From IMG/VR virus record IMGVR_UViG_3300045988_154477: a stretch of 64,000 nt of DNA; one strand, given 5' to 3'. Position numbers and translations under genes: made by a program. The first letter of the stretch is position 1. Each line of letters begins with the position of its first letter. This DNA comes from a virus. Taxonomy: Duplodnaviria > Heunggongvirae > Uroviricota > Caudoviricetes. Shown one piece after another: positions 11,710-57,662 of the stretch. Below the pieces are notes generated by a model. The model did not search any database, had not been told where the DNA came from, and saw only the letters and a list, made by a program, of their open reading frames with translations.

Positions 11710-11894
11710 GTATTTTTAAGTCACGAATGCTATCTTTTCGCATCATATTGACCTTTTAATCGTTCAGGCTTATAGTTCCGCCGTCGTAGCAAATTCTGCG
11801 ACCGGGTTTAGCAGCCTGAATACTTACGCGGACAACCGCAGATTTCCGATATTGCGGTATTTTTGTGTCCGTAAACCACGTTACGCCCGAATTA

Positions 11895-11968
11895 TGGTGG
11901 GGCGTGATGGGGAGGCTTCGGCCTGCTGGTTTCGTAAGTGCCAGTCTGCTAACCCCGTCACGTCCTGC
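11895..11968 (+). ncRNA. c4-like antisense immunity RNA (approximate bounds)
   Basis: Structured segment between operator and icd; CGGCCU (11919) and CUGCUAA (11946) complementary to AGGCCG (12011, icd SD) and UUAGCAG (11976). Confidence 0.4.
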
Positions 11969-12021
11969 CACCTGTTTAGCAGCGGGTCGCAGGTTGTTTA
12001 TCAACTTACGAGGCCGTAACT

Positions 12022-13372: not shown

Positions 13373-13441
13373 CGTTTTCTAAGTGCAAAGAATCACCATT
13401 TCGAGCTGGTGATTGAAGGTTGATGCAAATTTGGAGAAAAA

Positions 13442-14242
13442 ATGCAACAAACATTCAATGCGGATATGAATATATCAAACCTTCATCAAAATGTCGATCC
13501 TTCAACCACTCTGCCCGTTATTTGTGGTGTTGAAATTACGACCGACCGCGCTGGCCGTTACAACCTTAATGCTCTACACAGAGCGAGCGGACTCGGTGCC
13601 CATAAAGCGCCAGCTCAATGGCTAAGAACGCTGTCAGCAAAACAGCTCATCGAAGAGCTTGAAAAAGAAACTATGCAGAATTGCATAGTTTCGTTCGAAG
13701 GCCGTGGCGGCGGCACTTTTGCCCATGAATTGCTCGCTGTGGAGTACGCAGGCTGGATTTCTCCCGCGTTTCGGCTGAAGGTAAACCAGACATTTATCGA
13801 CTATCGAGCCGGAAGATTACAACCTGCTATTCCGCAGAGTCTCCCTGAAGCTCTCCGTTTGGCTGCCGACCTGGCAGAGCAAAAGCAACGGCTGGAGCAA
13901 AAAATGCTTATGGATGCACCTAAAGTCGAATTCGCCGAACGCGTTGCTACCGCCAGCGGGGTTCTAATCGGCAACTATGCCAAAGTGCTCGGCCTGGGCC
14001 AAAACTATCTCTTCACCTGGTTGCGTGATAACGGAATTCTGATCGCAACCGGTGAACGCAGGAACGTCCCCAAACAAGAATACATATCCCGTGGGTATTT
14101 CACCCTTAAAGAAACCGTGATCGATACAAGCAATGGAAGCAGGATTTCTTTCACGACTCGTATAACCGGCAAAGGTCAGCAGTGGCTGATGAAGCGATTG
14201 CTTGATGCTGGTGTGCTGGTACCTGTCGCGGCAACGCGCTAA
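13442..14242 (+). CDS. kilA: KilA (KilA-N domain plus antirepressor-like C-terminal domain), 266 aa
   Basis: GGAG SD; position before repL; C-terminus paralogous to Ant. Confidence 0.6.
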   Translation: MQQTFNADMNISNLHQNVDPSTTLPVICGVEITTDRAGRYNLNALHRASGLGAHKAPAQWLRTLSAKQLIEELEKETMQNCIVSFEGRGGGTFAHELLAVEYAGWISPAFRLKVNQTFIDYRAGRLQPAIPQSLPEALRLAADLAEQKQRLEQKMLMDAPKVEFAERVATASGVLIGNYAKVLGLGQNYLFTWLRDNGILIATGERRNVPKQEYISRGYFTLKETVIDTSNGSRISFTTRITGKGQQWLMKRLLDAGVLVPVAATR

Positions 14243-14271
14243 CAGACGTAGTAAGAACCACCAGCATTGTA

Positions 14272-15117
14272 ATGCTGGCTAAAGTCACTTTCCTGAGCTG
14301 TATAACGATGAGCGATTTTACTTTTTCTGGCTATGAATTGGCCTGCTTTGTAACACACTCCGGTCTATCCCGTAGCGCCGGGCATATCCTGTCGCAATGT
14401 GCAAATCTAGCGGCAACAACCAGTGAATACTTCATTCACAAGCCTCACCGCCTGATCGCGGCAGAAACTGGTTATAGCCAATCAACCGTCGTTCGTGCAT
14501 TCCGTGAAGCTGTAAACAAAGGAATTCTGTCTGTAGAGATTGTTATCGGCGATCACCATGAACGTCGCGCTAACCTGTACCGGTTTACACCATCCTTTTT
14601 GGCCTTCGCACAACAAGCCAAAAATGCGCTGATTGAAAGCAAATTAAAGATCTCTTCAGCGGCAACCAAGGTTAAAGCTGTTCTCGCTAAGACATTGGCT
14701 TTATTTAATTTTTTATCCACACCCCCATGTCAAAATGATACCCCCTCCCCCTGTCAGGATGACGTGGCAATAAAGAATAAGAAGTCACAAGTTAAAAAAA
14801 CAAAAAGATCAGTTTCCGGCGGTGCCGGAACGACCAGACTCAAAAAATTGACTTCATGGATCGCTGAGGCAAAAGCAAAGGCTGACAATCTGCGGTTATC
14901 CAAAAAACGCGCTCAAAAACATGAGTTCAAGCAGAAAGTAGAGGCGGCAGCGCGGAAATATGCTTACCTGAAGAACAAGCGTTCTCCTGATATTGGCGGG
15001 GTATCAAACTTCGATAATTTGCCGCATTGCATGACGGTAAACGAAGCTCTTAATGCGATTTTAGCCAAAAATAAAGATAACGAAAAATGGGGTATACCGG
15101 CAGGATTCAGGGGGTGA
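14272..15117 (+). CDS. repL: lytic replication initiator RepL
   Basis: 281-aa ORF after kilA; alternative ATG at 14308. Confidence 0.5.
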   Translation: MLAKVTFLSCITMSDFTFSGYELACFVTHSGLSRSAGHILSQCANLAATTSEYFIHKPHRLIAAETGYSQSTVVRAFREAVNKGILSVEIVIGDHHERRANLYRFTPSFLAFAQQAKNALIESKLKISSAATKVKAVLAKTLALFNFLSTPPCQNDTPSPCQDDVAIKNKKSQVKKTKRSVSGGAGTTRLKKLTSWIAEAKAKADNLRLSKKRAQKHEFKQKVEAAARKYAYLKNKRSPDIGGVSNFDNLPHCMTVNEALNAILAKNKDNEKWGIPAGFRG

Positions 15118-15167
15118 TAGATTGCTCTAATCTGGAGTCACCTGGCGTTTTCAGTTTGAGGTCGGAG

Positions 15168-15413
15168 ATGCAATCTGATTTTTTACAGTTAGCGATCGCT
15201 TTTGCAGGATATGTTTGTATTGGCTTCTGTGTATACATGATCAGCCGAAAAATGCTTGTCGATATCGACCGCAAAGAACGAGCAGAGGAGATCTTAGTAT
15301 GGATTTTCTTTGGCGCGGTCTGGCCATTAGGGATCATGTTTGCTGCAACATTTCTTCTGATGTGGATATTCACCCTTCCAGGTGATTTCTATAGAAAAAA
15401 AGCCAGACATTGA
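15168..15413 (+). CDS. small membrane protein
   Basis: MQSDFLQLAIAFAGYVCIGFCVYMISRK...; two hydrophobic helices; GAGG SD; track ORF starts earlier at 15087. Confidence 0.3.
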   Translation: MQSDFLQLAIAFAGYVCIGFCVYMISRKMLVDIDRKERAEEILVWIFFGAVWPLGIMFAATFLLMWIFTLPGDFYRKKARH

Positions 15414-15536
15414 TACAATCGTTGCGGGTGCTTGAGGCTATCTGCTTCAGGCATTACCCGAAAAGCAGATAGAAGAAAGCCCCAGATAACATTACGCGTC
15501 CTGCAAGACGCTTAACATTAATCTGAGGCCATATCT

Positions 15537-15743
15537 ATGCTTAGCATACGTAGATTAGCCTCTTACCGACCAAAAGGTCAAGGAGAAGCAGGCTATGAAG
15601 CAGCAAAAAGCGATGTTAATCGCTCTGATCGTCATCTGTTTAACCGTCATTGTGACGGCACTGGTAACGAGGAAAGACCTCTGCGAGGTACGAATCCGAA
15701 CCGGCCAGACGGAGGTCACTGTCTTCACAGCCTACGAATCTGA
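15537..15743 (+). CDS. Mok-like overlapping reading frame
   Basis: 68-aa ORF in another frame covering the hok-like gene, as in hok/mok loci. Confidence 0.3.
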   Translation: MLSIRRLASYRPKGQGEAGYEAAKSDVNRSDRHLFNRHCDGTGNEERPLRGTNPNRPDGGHCLHSLRI

Positions 15744-15750
15744 AAGGTAA
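15595..15750 (+). CDS. hok: Hok/Gef-family type I toxin, 51 aa
   Basis: MKQQKAMLIALIVICLTVIVTALVTRKDLCEVRIRTGQTEVTVFTAYESER; single TM helix plus conserved Hok/Gef C-terminus. Confidence 0.7.
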   Translation: MKQQKAMLIALIVICLTVIVTALVTRKDLCEVRIRTGQTEVTVFTAYESER

Positions 15751-15823
15751 GAGACCTGGCGGGGAGAGATCCTCGCCACTCTTCGTGTGTCAGGTATCCT
15801 CAATGCACCCTTTCCTCTCCAAA

Positions 15824-15852
15824 TAAAAAAGCTCCCGAAGGAGCTTTAAAAT
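15824..15852. terminator. bidirectional intrinsic terminator
   Basis: AAAAAAGCTCC-CGAA-GGAGCTTTAAAA between convergent hok and tail genes. Confidence 0.5.
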
Positions 15853-15866
15853 ACAAGTGATGACTC

Positions 15867-16376
15867 TTAATCCCACTCAATCCAGTTGTAGACGATACGA
15901 AGTGACGGGCGCACAGCGGCAGTCACATCTTCGGTACTAAAGTCGATTGCATCACTGTAGATTTTGCAGTCCAACATTTCAATTGTTGTAGCAGCTTTTG
16001 TCACAGCGTTAACCCCGGAAGATTTGGATTCAGGGGTAGCAGCCATCGTGATATCAACATAGTCCTTCGCCGCAATGCGATCCTTGATGAACTGAAGAAT
16101 ATCGCCTTCGATAGTCTCCACGCACTGGACCTGGATTTCCCCAGAGTTTCGAATTGGTCCGTGCTGGTTGAACTTCACACCATTCGGACCATAGTCCTCC
16201 ACATCCTCGCGGGTCATTTCAGGAATTTGCGACGTGCGAACCAGTACGCTGATATCTTCATGGCCTGCAAAAGTGAGCTGGAATTCAGAAGATACCAGTC
16301 GTTCGCCTTTGGCCGCGTTGGCAGTATAGCGGCCCTTAATAAATTTACGGTTTCCCTTAGTGTTATTGTGCCCCAT
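15867..16376 (-). CDS. tail tube-like protein, 169 aa
   Basis: Size and composition of contractile-tail tube proteins; last gene of late operon. Confidence 0.3.
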   Translation of the reverse strand: MGHNNTKGNRKFIKGRYTANAAKGERLVSSEFQLTFAGHEDISVLVRTSQIPEMTREDVEDYGPNGVKFNQHGPIRNSGEIQVQCVETIEGDILQFIKDRIAAKDYVDITMAATPESKSSGVNAVTKAATTIEMLDCKIYSDAIDFSTEDVTAAVRPSLRIVYNWIEWD

Positions 16377-16387
16377 ATAAAATCCTT

Positions 16388-16969
16388 TTACTGGAACGCC
16401 CGAACAATATCGGAGCTGTTATATATCGAAGAACCGGTCAACTGGAGGTTGACGGTGTTTTTCAGGAAATGCCCATTGCTGTCCCTGGGCGCATCGAGAT
16501 CGAAACTTATGTCCTGGATAGCGACATCAATGATGTTGATCCGGCGACCAATGTTTAGCGTCACGCGCTCCGGGATTCGACCACCAATACTGGCATCTTT
16601 AAGTTCCGGGCTAATCATCGCTGACAATGCGGCGATAGCTCCTGAAACCTCCGTGAATGGGTCAAACAAAGCGATGAAAGTTACTGGCAGCGTGAAAGTC
16701 GGCGGTGTTCCCCCTTCCCAAACCATTAAGCTGTTCCAACGGGCAACCGACGTTGTTTCAGTACCAACCTGCGCAAAACCACTGAAGGCACCAGCAACAG
16801 ATCCCATGGACATACCGGTAAACGGCGCTTCCCAATTCTGGGCCATGTTCATTGCCGCCCCCTGGCTGATATATCCGGTAACCTGGTACTGAGAGTTCGT
16901 TAAAGTAACTTTCAGAAATGGCGATACACCGTCAGCCTGGCTGTAAACCCCATAAGGAATAGGTGCCAT
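16388..16969 (-). CDS. tail tube/baseplate-initiator-like protein, 193 aa
   Basis: Adjacent to tube-like gene in late operon. Confidence 0.3.
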   Translation of the reverse strand: MAPIPYGVYSQADGVSPFLKVTLTNSQYQVTGYISQGAAMNMAQNWEAPFTGMSMGSVAGAFSGFAQVGTETTSVARWNSLMVWEGGTPPTFTLPVTFIALFDPFTEVSGAIAALSAMISPELKDASIGGRIPERVTLNIGRRINIIDVAIQDISFDLDAPRDSNGHFLKNTVNLQLTGSSIYNSSDIVRAFQ

Positions 16970-17004
16970 TCAAGTTAAAGGCCGGAGTTCTCCGGCCTCC
17001 TCCT

Positions 17005-17820
17005 TTAGCCAAGGCGCTTACGGCGCAGTTTCATTGACTTTTTGCGGGCAAGTTTTGCCGCGCCGGTCTGGGCTTTTCGACGCGCTTTTTTCAGCGCCGA
17101 TTTTTGAGCCGCAGTCAGACGTTTTTTACGCAGGCGTTTACGGATGAGTTTGATCTCACCGTTACGAACAACCTTCTTAAATGCTTCAGTCAGCATTTCA
17201 TCAGAAGTGCCAGCAACAACAAACGCCGCTTCCAGTTCGTCGCGGTCGTCGCTATCTAAACCAGCGATAGAGGCACCAACATCAGCAGCTGCGTCGTCGT
17301 CTTCATCGTCAGCCAGTGCTTCGATCAGGTCATCATCTACACCGCATGCTGCGAGGAAGTCAGCAACATTTGCCCATGCTTCGTTATAGGCATCGTCCTG
17401 TTCTTCTGTAACTTCGGAGTCGTCGTCATCAGAGATACCAGCGATAGCCTGAACGAAACCATCAAGGGAGTCGAAAGTCAGATCACCGCTATCAGCCCAG
17501 GCGAAAACGGCGTCGGCCGCATCACTCAACGCATTCTGCATAGCACTTCGATTTGCAGCTTCCAGAATCATCTGGTGCGCCTGTTCGACGGTCCATTCTT
17601 TACCGTCTTTCCCTTCCAGGATTTGCTCAGGAGCCGGGGCAGATGGAATGTTATCGTTAGTCTGTGCCGCCGGTTCCGGATTATTATTAATAACCGGATC
17701 TGTTGGCGGTTCGGCGCTTGCTCGGGCAGACTCCATCAGCTGCACAGGATCAGAGTTCAAAGCGAAACGAGACAGTCCATTCCCCAAAAATGCCCCGGAT
17801 TGAAAAAAGTTTTTGCTCAT
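17005..17820 (-). CDS. acidic structural/assembly protein with basic C-terminal tail
   Basis: Asp/Glu-rich centre, C-terminal RKRLRKKR...KLRRKRLG. Confidence 0.35.
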   Translation of the reverse strand: MSKNFFQSGAFLGNGLSRFALNSDPVQLMESARASAEPPTDPVINNNPEPAAQTNDNIPSAPAPEQILEGKDGKEWTVEQAHQMILEAANRSAMQNALSDAADAVFAWADSGDLTFDSLDGFVQAIAGISDDDDSEVTEEQDDAYNEAWANVADFLAACGVDDDLIEALADDEDDDAAADVGASIAGLDSDDRDELEAAFVVAGTSDEMLTEAFKKVVRNGEIKLIRKRLRKKRLTAAQKSALKKARRKAQTGAAKLARKKSMKLRRKRLG

Positions 17821-17829
17821 TGTATTCCC

Positions 17830-19419
17830 TTACTTAATAAGCAGCGGTACGCCCTGGATACGACGGGCTACGCCAGTCGGGCAGCAGGCCCAGACTACTT
17901 CCCATTTATCGAATTCCGCCTGCGTAACTTTCAGCACATACGGTTCTGTACCGTCAGCATCAGGATCACGAGGAGCCACCAGAGCGCCGGAGGCGACAAA
18001 GCGATCTAAAAGTTTGGTCATCCCTTTAGTCAGGCCAGCCGCAGTAATACCGTCCGGGCTATGCTTCATCTGTCGGGCTAACTGGACAAAGAAACGGCTG
18101 ATTGCATTCATCAGGGATGGGACGTGCTGGAAGTGCAGATAGTTATCCTGCGTGCAGCAAGTTAAAGCATCGTCAATGATCATCTGGCCAGAGGTGCCAA
18201 CAGATACTTTATTGAGACGGCCCTTGACCATTGCTTCTTCGTCCGGGGTATCTTCCGGATACAGCGGTTGAATTGACGCACGAGCAATGACGGCACGTTC
18301 TTCACCAGCCGGTGAGTAATGCCAACCGCCGACATCAGAGTTTTTCTTGACGCCACGAGCTTTCGCCGCATACGCCACGCCAGACAGACCAAAGACCACA
18401 CGGGATTGGGTCCATTTGTCTTTGCAGGAGAACGGGTAGTGATAGACAGCACAGCTTACATAATCGGTACCAAGTAAACCGGTATCTTCAACAGCAGAGA
18501 TCGCTTCCGTGTACGTCAATGTCGGTTTGACATCAAAGAAGCCATCAATCAGGCGATCTGCACAGATTTTACCTAATGCGGTGATAGCCGCATTGTCATA
18601 GCAGCCCAAGCCAAGAACAGCGGTGTACATGTACGGCGCATTATTCAGCACTTTAACCGCACGCAGGTACGCAGCGGTTGAGATTTTCGACTGATCGCCG
18701 TTGGTACCGCCAGTGAACGCCAACGATTTTTTGTTTGTTACTTTCGCTGTCGAAATCAGCTCTTCATTAACAACCGCGCGCAGATATTTAGAACGGGCTT
18801 CCAGAGCCGTAGGCAGATAACACAAGCGGCCCATGTCATCTTTCGCTTCTTCCGCCAAAGACACAGTGTGTGTCTCCAGGGTCGTTACCACGCCGAGCGA
18901 AGTCGTCTGGGTCAGTTTTAAGAGGAAGCGTTCATTACCCGCGCTGTCCGCTGTTGCCGTTTCGATGGTTAACTCACGGGTAGGTGAAATACACGGATCA
19001 CCATCATCAACGTAGATAGCAAAGGCTTCGCCACTATCAAGTTCAATTTCAGAACCGTATGGCAACGCACTGTAAGCCGGTTCGCCTGATTCATCGAACA
19101 TAATAATCGGGAACTTCGCATCATCCGGAACAGCGCGAACAACATAACCAGACGTTTGCTGAATAGCTTCGTATACATGGCGAATTGGTTCGAACTGTGA
19201 GCCGGAAGACGGCTTCAGCGGTTCGCCGAGAACATCTTCGTAATTGGACTCAGTAACCGCAAGAACAGTAAACGGCTTGCCACGCGCAAATACGCCAATA
19301 CCAGCCCATAAGCTGCTATTTAATGCAACACCGGTAGATAACGTCGCATCGGCATTGATCGGGCTAACCGCGACGCCGGATGCATTACCTAATGACTGTT
19401 GAATTGAATATTGAGACAT
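17830..19419 (-). CDS. tail sheath-like protein, 529 aa
   Basis: Size fits contractile sheath; AGGGAAAG SD; follows capsid-like gene. Confidence 0.35.
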   Translation of the reverse strand: MSQYSIQQSLGNASGVAVSPINADATLSTGVALNSSLWAGIGVFARGKPFTVLAVTESNYEDVLGEPLKPSSGSQFEPIRHVYEAIQQTSGYVVRAVPDDAKFPIIMFDESGEPAYSALPYGSEIELDSGEAFAIYVDDGDPCISPTRELTIETATADSAGNERFLLKLTQTTSLGVVTTLETHTVSLAEEAKDDMGRLCYLPTALEARSKYLRAVVNEELISTAKVTNKKSLAFTGGTNGDQSKISTAAYLRAVKVLNNAPYMYTAVLGLGCYDNAAITALGKICADRLIDGFFDVKPTLTYTEAISAVEDTGLLGTDYVSCAVYHYPFSCKDKWTQSRVVFGLSGVAYAAKARGVKKNSDVGGWHYSPAGEERAVIARASIQPLYPEDTPDEEAMVKGRLNKVSVGTSGQMIIDDALTCCTQDNYLHFQHVPSLMNAISRFFVQLARQMKHSPDGITAAGLTKGMTKLLDRFVASGALVAPRDPDADGTEPYVLKVTQAEFDKWEVVWACCPTGVARRIQGVPLLIK

Positions 19420-57060: not shown

Positions 57061-57282
57061 ATGCAATCCATTAACTTCCGTACCGCGCGCGGCAACCTTT
57101 CTGAAGTGCTCAACAATGTTGAAGCCGGGGAAGAGGTTGAAATCACCCGCAGAGGCCGTGAGCCAGCAGTAATTGTCAGCAAGGCTACTTTCGAAGCCTA
57201 CAAAAAAGCGGCGCTGGATGCTGAATTTGCATCCCTGTTTGACACCCTGGACTCCACCAACAAGGAACTGGTTAACCGATAA
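57061..57282 (+). CDS. phd: antitoxin Phd, 73 aa
   Basis: [39 protein letters not shown]... matches recalled P1 Phd. Confidence 0.9.
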
Positions 57283-57662
57283 TGAGGCATATATCACCGG
57301 AAGAACTTATTGCGCTTCATGATGCGAATATAAACCGCTACGGCGGCCTGCCTGGCATGTCAGATCCGGGCAGGGCAGAGGCCATTATCGGGAGAGTCCA
57401 GGCCAGAGTTGTGTACGAAGAGATTACCGACCTTTTCGAAGTCTCCGCAACCTACCTGGTGGCTACTGCGAGAGGGCATATATTCAATGATGCCAATAAG
57501 CGTACCGCGCTAAACAGTGCGCTGTTATTTCTACGCCGTAACGGGGTGCAGGTATTTGATTCACCTGAACTGGCAGACCTTACCGTAGGGGCTGCGACCG
57601 GAGAGATATCTGTATCTTCTGTCGCCGACACGTTACGTAGATTGTATGGTTCCGCAGAGTAG
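57282..57662 (+). CDS. doc: toxin Doc (Fic-fold kinase), 126 aa
   Basis: Overlapping start (TAATG); Fic-like [11 protein letters not shown] motif. Confidence 0.9.

What the first reader, a model, noticed from the sequence alone, without database searches (positions are those of the whole stretch)
15414..15860. Hok/Mok-like type I toxin locus between repL and the late structural operon
A 51-aa ORF has the hallmark Hok/Gef TM helix and C-terminus, with an overlapping Mok-like frame. On the opposite strand a candidate Sok-like promoter (TTGACC at 15576-15581, TAATCT at 15552-15557) points into the mok start region, and a 10-bp inverted repeat (CTATCTGCTT...AAGCAGATAG, 15445-15480) lies upstream. 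This would be a second addiction system besides phd-doc; I do not recall a hok homologue in reference P1.
Basis: partly seen in the sequence, partly recalled or inferred. Interest (0 to 1): 0.5.

Follow-up and report, generated by a model that had tools for sequence, protein, structure and literature searches.

The report
Intact hok/sok toxin-antitoxin cassette in P1-like plasmid
This is a complete, ordinary hok/mok/sok "host-killing" toxin–antisense RNA module. It is absent from textbook phage P1 but present, and already annotated, in about four of five sequenced P1-like plasmids.

Summary
A 51-aa Hok toxin ORF (15595-15750) passes the Pfam HOK_GEF cut-off (2.4e-22). The hok leader matches Rfam RF01794 at 114.9 bits against a cut-off of 59. 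It is the 5' hairpin of the hok mRNA. All sequence elements of the plasmid R1 model are present: tac, fbi, a metastable 5' hairpin, ucb/anti-SD, dcb and a 3' protective stem-loop. In a 30-locus alignment 37 of these base pairs change on both sides.

The cassette (15414-15810) is 86.5% identical to hokW-sokW of phage 933W, the locus shown experimentally to work in the related prophage Sp5. Together with a small unknown ORF it replaces rlfA-rlfB-pmgF of reference P1 and P7.

It is not new. Identical loci are annotated "hokD" or "MokW" in public records. About 419 of about 515 repL-bearing PLSDB plasmids carry the arrangement, and roughly half of those appear interrupted in the 3' UTR (an IS186-family insertion in the one example examined). 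The most likely role is post-segregational killing alongside phd-doc (57061-57659). A role in lysis is a live alternative. Interest is low.

The parts
15392..15419 (+). hok/mok mRNA promoter: -35-like TAGAAA (15392-15397), 16-bp spacer, extended -10 TG (15411-15412) plus TACAAT (15414-15419). The predicted +1 is near 15426.
   Evidence: Promoter scan gives 9 of 12 matches with TG before the -10. The -10 aligns with TAGAAT of 933W. Homology with other hok loci starts at 15414-15426. Transcription was not tested.
15426..15437 (+). tac (translational activator) element, GGGUGCUUGAGG, at the 5' end of the hok mRNA.
   Evidence: It pairs with fbi at 15798-15810 in the full-length MFE structure. A 5'-3' duplex of about 10-13 bp (12 bp in most) is found in 29 of 30 related loci, with compensatory changes. 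It can alternatively pair with 15477-15483.
15438..15472 (+).
   Evidence: This is helix 2: 90.7% of cells are paired and 2 pairs change on both sides.
15430..15459 (+). Metastable co-transcriptional hairpin: GCUUGAGGC (15430-15438) pairs with GCUUCAGGC (15444-15452), extended by GGGU/ACCC. It would sequester tac in the nascent transcript.
   Evidence: It is the MFE structure of nascent prefixes ending at 15455-15540 (-17 to -19.9 kcal/mol for the hairpin). The substitutions in 933W keep both this hairpin and the alternative one. In silico only.
15477..15487 (+). ucb / anti-SD box (AAGCCCCAGAU). It pairs with the mok SD region in the closed form and with tac in the open form.
   Evidence: Closed form: 15479-15487 pairs with 15521-15529. 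This is helix 5, with 91.8% of cells paired and 6 pairs changed on both sides. Open form: 15477-15483 pairs with 15426-15433.
15475..15545 (-). Predicted Sok antisense RNA (about 71 nt), complementary to the mok SD and start codon. It has a long terminal stem-loop followed by GGGGCUUUCUU.
   Evidence: Coordinates were mapped from the annotated sokW of 933W. Folding of the candidate as window 15470-15546 (-), 77 nt, gives -32 kcal/mol, z -5.06. Expression was not tested here. sokW has been shown to be expressed and antitoxic (PMC8621323).
15552..15581 (-). Sok promoter: -35 TTGACC (15581-15576), 18-bp spacer, -10 TAATCT (15557-15552).
   Evidence: Read directly. The position is homologous to 933W TTGCCT...TAACCT. 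The strict consensus scan did not call it.
15525..15743 (+). mok: SD GAGG (15525-15528), ATG at 15537, 68-codon ORF ending at 15743. It overlaps hok out of frame.
   Evidence: The GAGG and ATG are conserved across the 30-locus alignment. Translational coupling is inferred from plasmid R1 (PMC9841398).
15558..15567 (+). dcb box (GCCUCUUACC). It pairs with the mok SD (15525-15529 / 15558-15562) in the open form and with the hok stop region (15746-15753) in the full-length fold.
   Evidence: (repeat I7).
15581..15750 (+). hok: SD AGGAG (15581-15585), ATG at 15595, 51 codons, stop TAA at 15748-15750.
   Evidence: It shares 48 of 51 residues with K-12 HokD and 47 of 51 with HokW.
15757..15778 (+). 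3'-UTR stem-loop UGGCGGGGA-GAGA-UCCUCGCCA. It is the likely 3' end protector of the processed (truncated) mRNA and the target of IS186-family insertion in related plasmids.
   Evidence: This is helix 17 (86.6% of cells paired). In pMCR-1-P3 an IS is inserted here, with duplication of 15762-15772.
15798..15810 (+). fbi (fold-back inhibition) element, CCUCAAUGCACCC.
   Evidence: This is the last block shared with 933W, K-12 hokD and 40-odd other loci.
15828..15847 (.). Bidirectional hairpin terminator of the P1 backbone, downstream of bplB. It is strong on the - strand (tail TTTTATTT) and has only a UUU tail on the + strand, so it is a possible 3' end of the full-length hok mRNA.
   Evidence: P1 homology resumes at 15825. 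The true 3' end is unknown.
15132..15824 (.). A 693-bp segment (ORF81 plus the hok/sok cassette) that replaces 1826 bp of reference P1 (part of operator Orlf, rlfA, rlfB and pmgF).
   Evidence: blastn breakpoints. P1 annotation.
15168..15413 (+). ORF81, a small hydrophobic protein of unknown function that travels with the cassette in P1-like plasmids. It is not part of the hok/sok homology.
   Evidence: PHROG 3772 at 6e-54, function unknown. PGAP calls it hypothetical protein WP_001426344.1.

Best explanation
The locus is an intact hok/mok/sok type I toxin-antitoxin cassette of the hokD/hokW subgroup, carried by a P1-like plasmid prophage. It most likely works as described for plasmid R1.

Shown here, from the sequence:
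- A promoter with an extended -10 (TACAAT at 15414-15419) would start a roughly 385-425-nt mRNA at about 15426.
- The 5' tac element of that mRNA (15426-15437) is complementary to the 3' fbi element (15798-15810).
- The mok Shine-Dalgarno sequence (15525-15528) is paired with an anti-SD box (15479-15487).
- A convergent promoter (15581-15552, - strand) would make a roughly 71-nt Sok RNA (15545 to 15475) complementary to the mok translation start.

Inferred from the R1 model and from hokW-sokW:
- The full-length mRNA is stable and silent.
- Slow 3' trimming back to the 15757-15778 stem-loop removes fbi. tac then pairs with 15477-15483, which frees the mok SD and the Sok target.
- In plasmid-bearing cells the unstable Sok binds the trimmed mRNA and the duplex is destroyed.
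- In cells that lose the plasmid, Sok decays. mok is then translated, hok is translated by coupling, and Hok (a 51-aa inner-membrane peptide) kills the cell.

The module would therefore be a second post-segregational killing system next to phd-doc. Confidence that it is a hok/sok locus is about 0.97. The figure given here is the confidence that it is active and that plasmid stabilisation is its main role.
For: Identity:
- Pfam HOK_GEF at 2.4e-22.
- Rfam RF01794 at 114.9 bits against a cut-off of 59.
- 86.5% nucleotide identity over 15414-15810 to 933W hokW-sokW.
- Hok shares 47 of 51 residues with HokW and 48 of 51 with HokD.

Integrity:
- The promoter has an extended -10.
- mok has an SD and an ATG.
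- The Sok hexamers are at the position homologous to sokW.
- The Sok fold has z = -5.1.

RNA switch:
- The full-length fold is -165.7 kcal/mol with z = -7.97 and shows tac/fbi pairing.
- A metastable 5' hairpin forms in nascent prefixes.
- The open tac/ucb plus SD/dcb form is 12.9-14.1 kcal/mol above the MFE in the full-length RNA. It is only 2.6 kcal/mol above the MFE once the RNA ends at 15779.

Conservation across 30 loci from Escherichia, Kluyvera, Citrobacter, Photorhabdus and Erwinia:
- 86.6% of cells are paired, against about 41% when partners are slid.
- 37 pairs change on both sides, and 0 of 500 shuffles reach this.
- A tac/fbi duplex is found in 29 of 30 loci. U-A changes to C-G in 7 Photorhabdus loci.

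Function of relatives:
- HokW is toxic, sokW is antitoxic, and HokW localises to the inner membrane (PMC8621323).
- The R1 mechanism and its post-segregational killing are described in PMC9841398.

Context:
- The element is a low-copy plasmid prophage that already relies on an addiction module (phd-doc).
- Uninterrupted copies persist in at least 217 PLSDB plasmids.
Against: - No expression, toxicity or plasmid-loss data exist for this locus.
- The Sok -10 (TAATCT) is weak by consensus and the scan did not call it.
- The unconstrained MFE of the truncated RNA returns to the metastable hairpin rather than the open form.
- The 3' end of the full-length mRNA is undefined. The cassette has no terminator of its own, and the nearest hairpin has only a UUU tail on this strand.
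- About half of the hok-type P1-like plasmids lack an uninterrupted 3' UTR-fbi junction (an IS186-family insertion in the one example examined), so the module is dispensable.
- The closest studied relative, hokW-sokW, was reported to aid phage release. Stabilisation was not addressed (PMC8621323).
- Most E. coli genomes (4748 of 5426) carry related hok/sok loci that might cross-protect.
Confidence: 0.55

Rival explanations
1. It is the same intact hok/sok module, but its main role is in the lytic cycle, as reported for hokW-sokW of prophage Sp5. On induction Sok disappears, Hok is made and damages the inner membrane early. This speeds lysis and raises phage release. A specific version is possible here. 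When C1 repression is lifted, transcription from the kilA-repL lytic operon runs through ORF81 into the cassette. That transcription opposes the convergent Sok promoter.
For: - The cassette is 86.5% identical to hokW-sokW.
- For hokW-sokW, sokW is lost after induction, HokW production depends on RecA, and progeny release drops about 2-fold in the deletion (PMC8621323).
- The cassette lies directly downstream of repL, in the same orientation.
- Only a weak terminator-like site (15370-15385; 5-bp stem) lies in between.
- The C1 operator Orlf at the junction is truncated.
Against: - P1 has its own holin and endolysin system and lyses well without hok: reference P1 lacks the cassette.
- Read-through and interference were not measured.
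- The hokW effect was modest (2-fold).
- The element spends its lysogenic life as a low-copy plasmid, where post-segregational killing has an obvious pay-off.
Confidence: 0.2
2. The module acts mainly as an abortive-infection or exclusion device against other phages. A superinfecting lytic phage shuts off host transcription, Sok decays, and Hok kills the cell before the invader completes its cycle.
For: R1 hok/sok on a high-copy plasmid reduced T4 plating efficiency by 42% and plaque size by about 85%, as summarised in PMC8621323. P1-like variable regions often hold defence or cargo genes (PMC9603915).
Against: The R1 effect is weak and needed high copy number. No such test exists for the hokD/hokW subgroup. 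Nothing in the anatomy here is specific to this role.
Confidence: 0.08
3. The module is a silent or neutralised passenger. It is structurally intact but gives no phenotype in its usual hosts. This could be because of weak promoters or because of cross-protection by chromosomal or prophage Sok homologues. It persists only because it is linked to the P1 backbone.
For: - Roughly half of the hok-type P1-like plasmids appear interrupted in the 3' UTR. The one example examined has an IS186-family insertion.
- One variant keeps only the leader.
- K-12 gef/hokC has the same kind of IS186 insertion downstream of the coding region (PMC3562002).
- Related loci are present in 4748 of 5426 E. coli genomes.
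Against: - All regulatory elements and the ORF are intact in this window, and at least 217 plasmids are 98-100% identical over the 3' junction.
- The region corresponding to the Sok 5' tail (15529-15546) is the most diverged part of the leader between subgroups, which argues against general cross-protection.
- For R1 hok, chromosomal Sok RNAs did not protect (PMC9841398).
Confidence: 0.15

Closest known systems
hokW-mokW-sokW of Stx2 phages 933W / Sakai prophage 5
   Same: The two share 86.5% nucleotide identity over the whole transcription unit (window 15414-15810). Hok is identical at 47 of 51 residues. tac, the 5' hairpin, ucb, the Sok stem-loop with its 18-nt insertion, dcb, the 3' stem-loop and fbi are the same. 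Both are carried by a temperate phage. hokW-sokW has been shown experimentally to be a type I TA system (PMC8621323).
   Different: In 933W the annotated mokW is in frame with hokW (57-nt offset). Here one extra T (15578) gives a 58-nt offset and an out-of-frame mok, and it improves the Sok -35 to TTGACC. The region of the Sok 5' tail differs at about 6 of 18 positions, read by eye. The hosts differ too: an integrated lambdoid prophage versus a plasmid prophage.
hok/mok/sok (parB) of plasmid R1
   Same: The architecture and predicted RNA switch are the same: tac/fbi, metastable hairpin, ucb/anti-SD, dcb, mok coupling, and Sok against the mok start (model in PMC9841398). Both sit on a low-copy plasmid alongside other stability systems. 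From my memory of the R1 sequence, the mok-hok offset is also 58 nt.
   Different: The proteins are distant. HokW, which is close to this Hok, shares 44% identity with R1 Hok (PMC8621323). blastn does not align the nucleotide sequences (no R1-type hit). The Sok stem-loop is longer here.
hokD (relF) of E. coli K-12, Qin prophage
   Same: The protein is the closest match, at 48 of 51 residues. There is 91% nucleotide identity from the hok SD to fbi (window 15581-15810). This is why PGAP names the plasmid gene hokD.
   Different: K-12 hokD lacks everything upstream of the hok SD: promoter, tac, ucb, the mok start and sok. It sits behind relBE. The window locus is complete.
gef/hokC-sokC and other chromosomal hok loci of Escherichia
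   Same: They belong to the same mRNA family. They align from +1 to fbi at about 74% identity, with conserved structure. They are also prone to IS186 insertion downstream of the ORF (PMC3562002; compare).
   Different: The Sok target hairpin is shorter (no 18-nt insert) and the location is chromosomal. From my own knowledge (Pedersen & Gerdes 1999, not checked here), the K-12 copies are considered inactivated.

Membership tests
hok/sok type I toxin-antitoxin family (Pfam PF01848, Rfam RF01794) | A toxin of about 50 aa with an N-terminal transmembrane helix and the conserved Hok/Gef C-terminal region | tested here: met
   Pfam HOK_GEF at 78.7 bits against a cut-off of 22, model positions 1-42/42. 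PHROG 251 at 4.9e-32. 48 of 51 residues match HokD.
hok/sok type I toxin-antitoxin family (Pfam PF01848, Rfam RF01794) | An overlapping upstream leader ORF (mok) with its own SD, starting about 58 nt before hok | tested here: met
   ORF 15537-15743, with SD GAGG at 15525-15528. The SD and ATG are conserved in the 30-locus alignment. Translational coupling itself cannot be tested here.
hok/sok type I toxin-antitoxin family (Pfam PF01848, Rfam RF01794) | A cis-encoded antisense RNA gene (sok) complementary to the mok translation initiation region | tested here: met
   The leader matches RF01794 at 114.9 bits. The region aligns with the annotated sokW, giving window 15545-15475. The stem-loop is stable, z -5.06. 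The stem has 6 pairs changed on both sides (helix 5).
hok/sok type I toxin-antitoxin family (Pfam PF01848, Rfam RF01794) | A strong constitutive Sok promoter and a short-lived Sok RNA | tested here: inconclusive
   TTGACC, 18 bp, TAATCT is present at the homologous position. The -10 matches the consensus at only 3 of 6 positions and the scan did not report it. RNA level and half-life cannot be tested here.
hok/sok type I toxin-antitoxin family (Pfam PF01848, Rfam RF01794) | Long-range pairing of the mRNA 5' end (tac) with the 3' end (fbi) | tested here: met
   A 12-bp duplex with one bulge forms between 15426-15437 and 15798-15810, at -21 kcal/mol against -10.8 for shuffles. It is present in 29 of 30 loci, with compensatory U-A to C-G changes.
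hok/sok type I toxin-antitoxin family (Pfam PF01848, Rfam RF01794) | A metastable 5' hairpin in the nascent transcript, and a closed-to-open switch (tac/ucb, SD/dcb) after 3' trimming | tested here: inconclusive
   The metastable hairpin is the MFE of nascent prefixes. The penalty for the open form falls from 12.9-14.1 to 2.6 kcal/mol after truncation at 15779. The open form is never the unconstrained MFE of the truncated RNA. Thermodynamic prediction only.
hok/sok type I toxin-antitoxin family (Pfam PF01848, Rfam RF01794) | Toxicity of Hok, neutralisation by Sok, and post-segregational killing | not testable with these tools
   Shown only for relatives: hokW-sokW (PMC8621323) and R1 (PMC9841398).
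NCBIfam Hok models (NF007279 subfamily; NF007290 HokA equivalog) | A score at or above the curated cut-off | tested here: not met
   49.5 bits against 73 for the subfamily model, and 38.1 against 89 for the HokA equivalog. The PGAP name 'hokD' in public records therefore cannot come from either of these two models. I presume it rests on direct protein similarity (48 of 51 residues).
K-12-type hokD (relF) locus | A leaderless hok copy at the 3' end of the relBE operon, with no mok start and no sok | tested here: not met
   The window has the full leader from 15414 to 15580, which K-12 lacks. No relBE is adjacent. It is HokD-like in protein sequence only.
Reference P1/P7 gene content | Presence of the locus in NC_005856 / AF234172 (P1) or AF503408 (P7) | tested here: not met
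   P1 and P7 align only to 13400-15131 and 15825-17900. They carry rlfA-rlfB-pmgF (P7: rapA etc.) in between. Neither appears among the rows listed for the cassette search (40 of 89 records shown).

The most novel reading that the evidence does not exclude
In P1-like plasmids the hok/sok cassette has been placed immediately downstream of the C1-repressed kilA-repL lytic operon, in the same orientation. It displaces the C1-controlled rlfA/rlfB genes and cuts their operator. On this reading the cassette works as an induction-coupled switch. Read-through from the lytic operon collides with the convergent Sok promoter, Sok falls, and Hok contributes to killing or lysis during lytic growth. It could also punish abortive induction. 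That would give a concrete mechanism for the unexplained loss of sokW on prophage induction. Frequent IS186 insertion would then reflect selection against this coupling.
Probability: 0.12. Interest if true: 0.45.

Novelty: already known. Interest (0 to 1): 0.15.

Why it matters
The result corrects a bias that comes from the reference genome. Laboratory P1 and P7 are the minority type at this spot. About 80% of sequenced P1-like plasmids carry hok/sok here instead of rlfA-rlfB-pmgF. These plasmids include mcr-1 and blaCTX-M carriers. A second killing module next to phd-doc could make these resistance-carrying phage-plasmids harder to lose. Its frequent interruption also offers a natural series of variants (intact, interrupted, leader-only) for testing what hok/sok does for a phage-plasmid. 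As a discovery, however, it is ordinary: a well-understood family, already annotated in hundreds of records.

Tried and rejected
1. I checked whether the inverted repeat could be a Sok terminator or an operator. I rejected this. It lies inside the hok mRNA 5' region, outside the mapped Sok (15545-15475), has no T-run on either strand, and co-varies as an mRNA hairpin.

2. I first labelled 15560-15567/15746-15753 as ucb/dcb. After reading PMC9841398 I corrected this: ucb is the anti-SD at 15477-15487, and dcb is at 15558-15567.

3. In one search the 'SD/dcb forced' energies used pairs shifted by one base and are invalid. One search replaces them.

4. The unconstrained MFE of 3'-truncated RNAs did not give the open conformation. 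Only constrained folding showed that it becomes nearly iso-energetic.

5. Seven literature searches looked for an explicit description of hok/sok in P1-like elements. They found only 'antibacterial toxin' ORFs replacing rlfA-rlfB-pmgF (PMC6906374) and 'variable region 5' (PMC9603915). The hits on 'hok' in papers about P1-like plasmids referred to other plasmids.

6. NCBIfam did not reach its cut-offs.

7. Pfam and NCBIfam gave nothing for ORF81.

8. The count of 262 plasmids (at least 80% of 15087-15900) does not fit simply with the 419 and 217. I did not resolve why, so the variant fractions are approximate.

9. I did not use structure prediction or the large protein searches. The family assignment did not need them.
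Full report
**What is there**

Between repL (14272-15117, +) and bplB (15867-16376, -) the window holds a 51-codon ORF at 15595-15750. Its sequence is MKQQKAMLIALIVICLTVIVTALVTRKDLCEVRIRTGQTEVTVFTAYESER.
- It matches Pfam HOK_GEF over the whole model, at E 2.4e-22 and 78.7 bits against a cut-off of 22.
- It matches PHROG 251 'MokW-like host killing'.
- A 68-codon ORF (15537-15743) starts 58 nt upstream in another frame. This is the mok position.
- The leader at 15426-15600 matches Rfam RF01794 'sok' at 114.9 bits against a gathering score of 59. The match is on the + strand and ends on the hok AUG, so the model as built represents the hok-mRNA leader.
- The 10-bp inverted repeat is real but lies at 15438-15447/15463-15472.

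**Anatomy**

A promoter with an extended -10 (TG at 15411-15412, TACAAT at 15414-15419) is called by the scan. It puts +1 near 15426, which is also where homology with other hok loci begins.

Full-length RNA:
- The 427-nt RNA from 15426 to 15852 folds to -165.7 kcal/mol, z = -7.97.
- In that fold the 5' GGGUGCUUGAGG (15426-15437, tac) pairs with CCUCAA(U)GCACCC (15798-15810, fbi).
- The mok SD (GAGG, 15525-15528) is buried against 15479-15487, the ucb/anti-SD box.
- A GC-rich stem-loop sits at 15757-15778.

Nascent and truncated RNA:
- Nascent prefixes fold tac into a local hairpin (15430-15438 / 15444-15452). This is the expected metastable structure.
- Forcing the alternative tac/ucb stem (15426-15433 / 15477-15483) makes the SD/dcb stem (15525-15529 / 15558-15562) appear on its own.
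- This open form costs 12.9-14.1 kcal/mol in the full-length RNA. It costs only 2.6 kcal/mol once the RNA ends at 15779.
- This agrees qualitatively with the R1 model of activation by 3' trimming (PMC9841398).

Sok:
- The annotated sokW of 933W maps to window 15545 to 15475 on the - strand. That places its start 7 nt downstream of TAATCT.
- The RNA folds into a long stem-loop (-32 kcal/mol, z -5.06).
- It covers the mok SD and start codon.

**Comparative support**

A scan of one genome per species returned 47 related loci. Homology to the window runs from about 15423-15426 to about 15810 and no further. The conserved unit is therefore the transcript.

I aligned 30 non-identical loci from Escherichia, Kluyvera, Citrobacter, Photorhabdus and Erwinia relatives and projected the window's full-length structure onto the alignment.
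- 86.6% of cells are paired, against about 41% when partners are slid.
- 37 pairs change on both sides.
- No shuffle out of 500 reaches the observed covariation.

A tac/fbi duplex of about 10-13 bp (12 bp in most) is found in 29 of 30 loci. In 7 Photorhabdus loci U4-A has become C-G, and in Photorhabdus loci generally G12-C has become A-U.

**Where it came from**

Against reference P1 (NC_005856), the window matches at 13400-15131 and at 15825-17900. The 693 bp in between replace 1826 bp of P1 that carry part of the C1 operator Orlf, rlfA, rlfB and pmgF. P7 has the P1-type arrangement.

Within the 693 bp:
- 15414-15810 is 86.5% identical to hokW-sokW of phage 933W.
- 15168-15413 is a separate small ORF of unknown function, PHROG 3772.

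K-12 hokD matches only from the hok SD to fbi (15581-15810, 91%) and lacks the whole leader. The label 'hokD' therefore reflects protein similarity only (48 of 51 residues).

**How common it is**

- Six 'P1' phage records carry the identical arrangement. One of them annotates the ORF as MokW.
- In PLSDB, 507-515 plasmids carry this repL.
- 99-101 of them carry the P1-type rlfA-rlfB-pmgF.
- 419 carry ORF81 plus the hok leader and ORF. That is about four in five.
- Only 217 have an uninterrupted 15700-15860.
- In pMCR-1-P3 a 1338-bp IS186/IS421 element sits in the loop of the 15757-15778 hairpin and separates fbi from the mRNA. This is the same kind of insertion known at K-12 gef/hokC (PMC3562002).
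- A third variant, pF1140-3, keeps only the leader up to 15560.
- 235 of 5426 complete E. coli genomes hold the window-type arrangement. RefSeq names the gene hokD.
- Venturini et al. noted that rlfA-rlfB-pmgF are replaced by ORFs 'including antibacterial toxin' (PMC6906374).
- A later survey of P1-like plasmids lists this spot as variable region 5 (PMC9603915).
- I found no paper in the searchable library that studies hok/sok function in a P1-like element.

**Function**

Identity as a hok/mok/sok locus is close to certain. In this window the copy is intact in every element I could check.

The most likely role is post-segregational killing that supplements phd-doc, which is present at 57061-57659. 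This rests on the R1 paradigm and on the plasmid lifestyle.

The best rival comes from the nearest studied relative. For hokW-sokW of Sp5, HokW is toxic and sokW is antitoxic. sokW also vanishes on induction, and the locus doubles phage release (PMC8621323). Here the cassette lies directly downstream of the C1-controlled kilA-repL operon, in the same orientation, with only a weak terminator-like site between them. Read-through against the Sok promoter is therefore conceivable but untested.

Phage exclusion and a silent-passenger status are weaker alternatives. The apparent interruption of about half of the copies (by an IS186-family element in the example examined) shows that the module is dispensable.

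**Verdict**

The finding is a known, routinely annotated member of a textbook family. Its only mildly noteworthy aspects are these:
- Reference P1 is atypical at this locus.
- Natural intact, IS-interrupted and leader-only alleles exist side by side.

Noticed in passing
window 15168-15413 (+): An 81-aa hydrophobic ORF lies just upstream of the hok promoter. The ORF listing extends it to 108 aa from 15087. It matches PHROG 3772 (6e-54, unknown function) and has no Pfam or NCBIfam match. PGAP calls it hypothetical protein WP_001426344.1. It accompanies the hok cassette in P1-like plasmids but is not part of the hok homology found elsewhere. Its stop codon TGA (15411-15413) supplies the TG of the extended -10 of the hok promoter.
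   Followed up: partly
window 15121-15131: The left breakpoint relative to P1 falls inside the C1 operator Orlf (Op55). Only ATTGCTCTAAT of the 17-bp operator is kept. C1 control of whatever follows repL is therefore probably lost.
   Followed up: partly
window 15762-15772; L005 3360-4697: This is an insertion site for IS186/IS421-family elements, in the loop of the hok 3'-UTR hairpin. In pMCR-1-P3 a 1338-bp IS (terminal repeat CATAAGCGCTAACTTAAGGGT) separates the hok ORF from fbi. About 200 of 419 hok-type PLSDB plasmids lack an uninterrupted 15700-15860. pSvP1 has IS186B with direct repeat GGATCTCTCC at the same place (PMC6906374).
   Followed up: partly
L006 (pF1140-3) 3001-3147, corresponding to window 15414-15560: This P1-like plasmid keeps only the hok leader with the Sok coding region and -10. 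It has lost the Sok -35, the hok ORF and fbi. A 761-bp segment with a 597-bp ORF on the - strand takes their place.
   Followed up: partly
window 15426-15600: Rfam RF01794, named 'sok antitoxin', matches the sense strand of the hok mRNA leader and ends on the hok AUG. The - strand scores only 21 bits, at a shifted position. Strand calls from this family should not be read as the Sok strand.
   Followed up: yes
window 15578; L003 1616-1828: In 933W the annotated mokW is in frame with hokW (57-nt offset). The window has one extra T, giving a 58-nt offset and an out-of-frame mok. The same T turns the Sok -35 from TTGCCT into TTGACC.
   Followed up: partly
L016 (275 bp), L028 (431 bp), H8: Hok sequences 100% identical to the window's over the aligned residues (5-51 and 1-41) occur on very short contigs labelled Acinetobacter idrijaensis and Xanthomonas pisi. 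An 89%-identical locus occurs in an 'Actinobacillus phage' record. These are most likely Escherichia-derived contamination or mis-assignment.
   Followed up: no
window 11770-11975, 31599-31749, 33380-33452, 57061-57659: Other P1 landmarks are present in the window. They are the C4 antisense RNA and its a1/b1 targets (immI region), three tRNA genes, and phd-doc (Phd 100% and Doc 97.6% identical to sequences recalled from memory).
   Followed up: no
L014 (E. coli ECMA0423 chromosome) 533-926: This chromosomal hok locus has a mutated 5' end (GACUGCAUGUGG) that no longer pairs with its intact fbi. It is the only one of 30 loci without the tac/fbi duplex and is probably a decaying copy.
   Followed up: no
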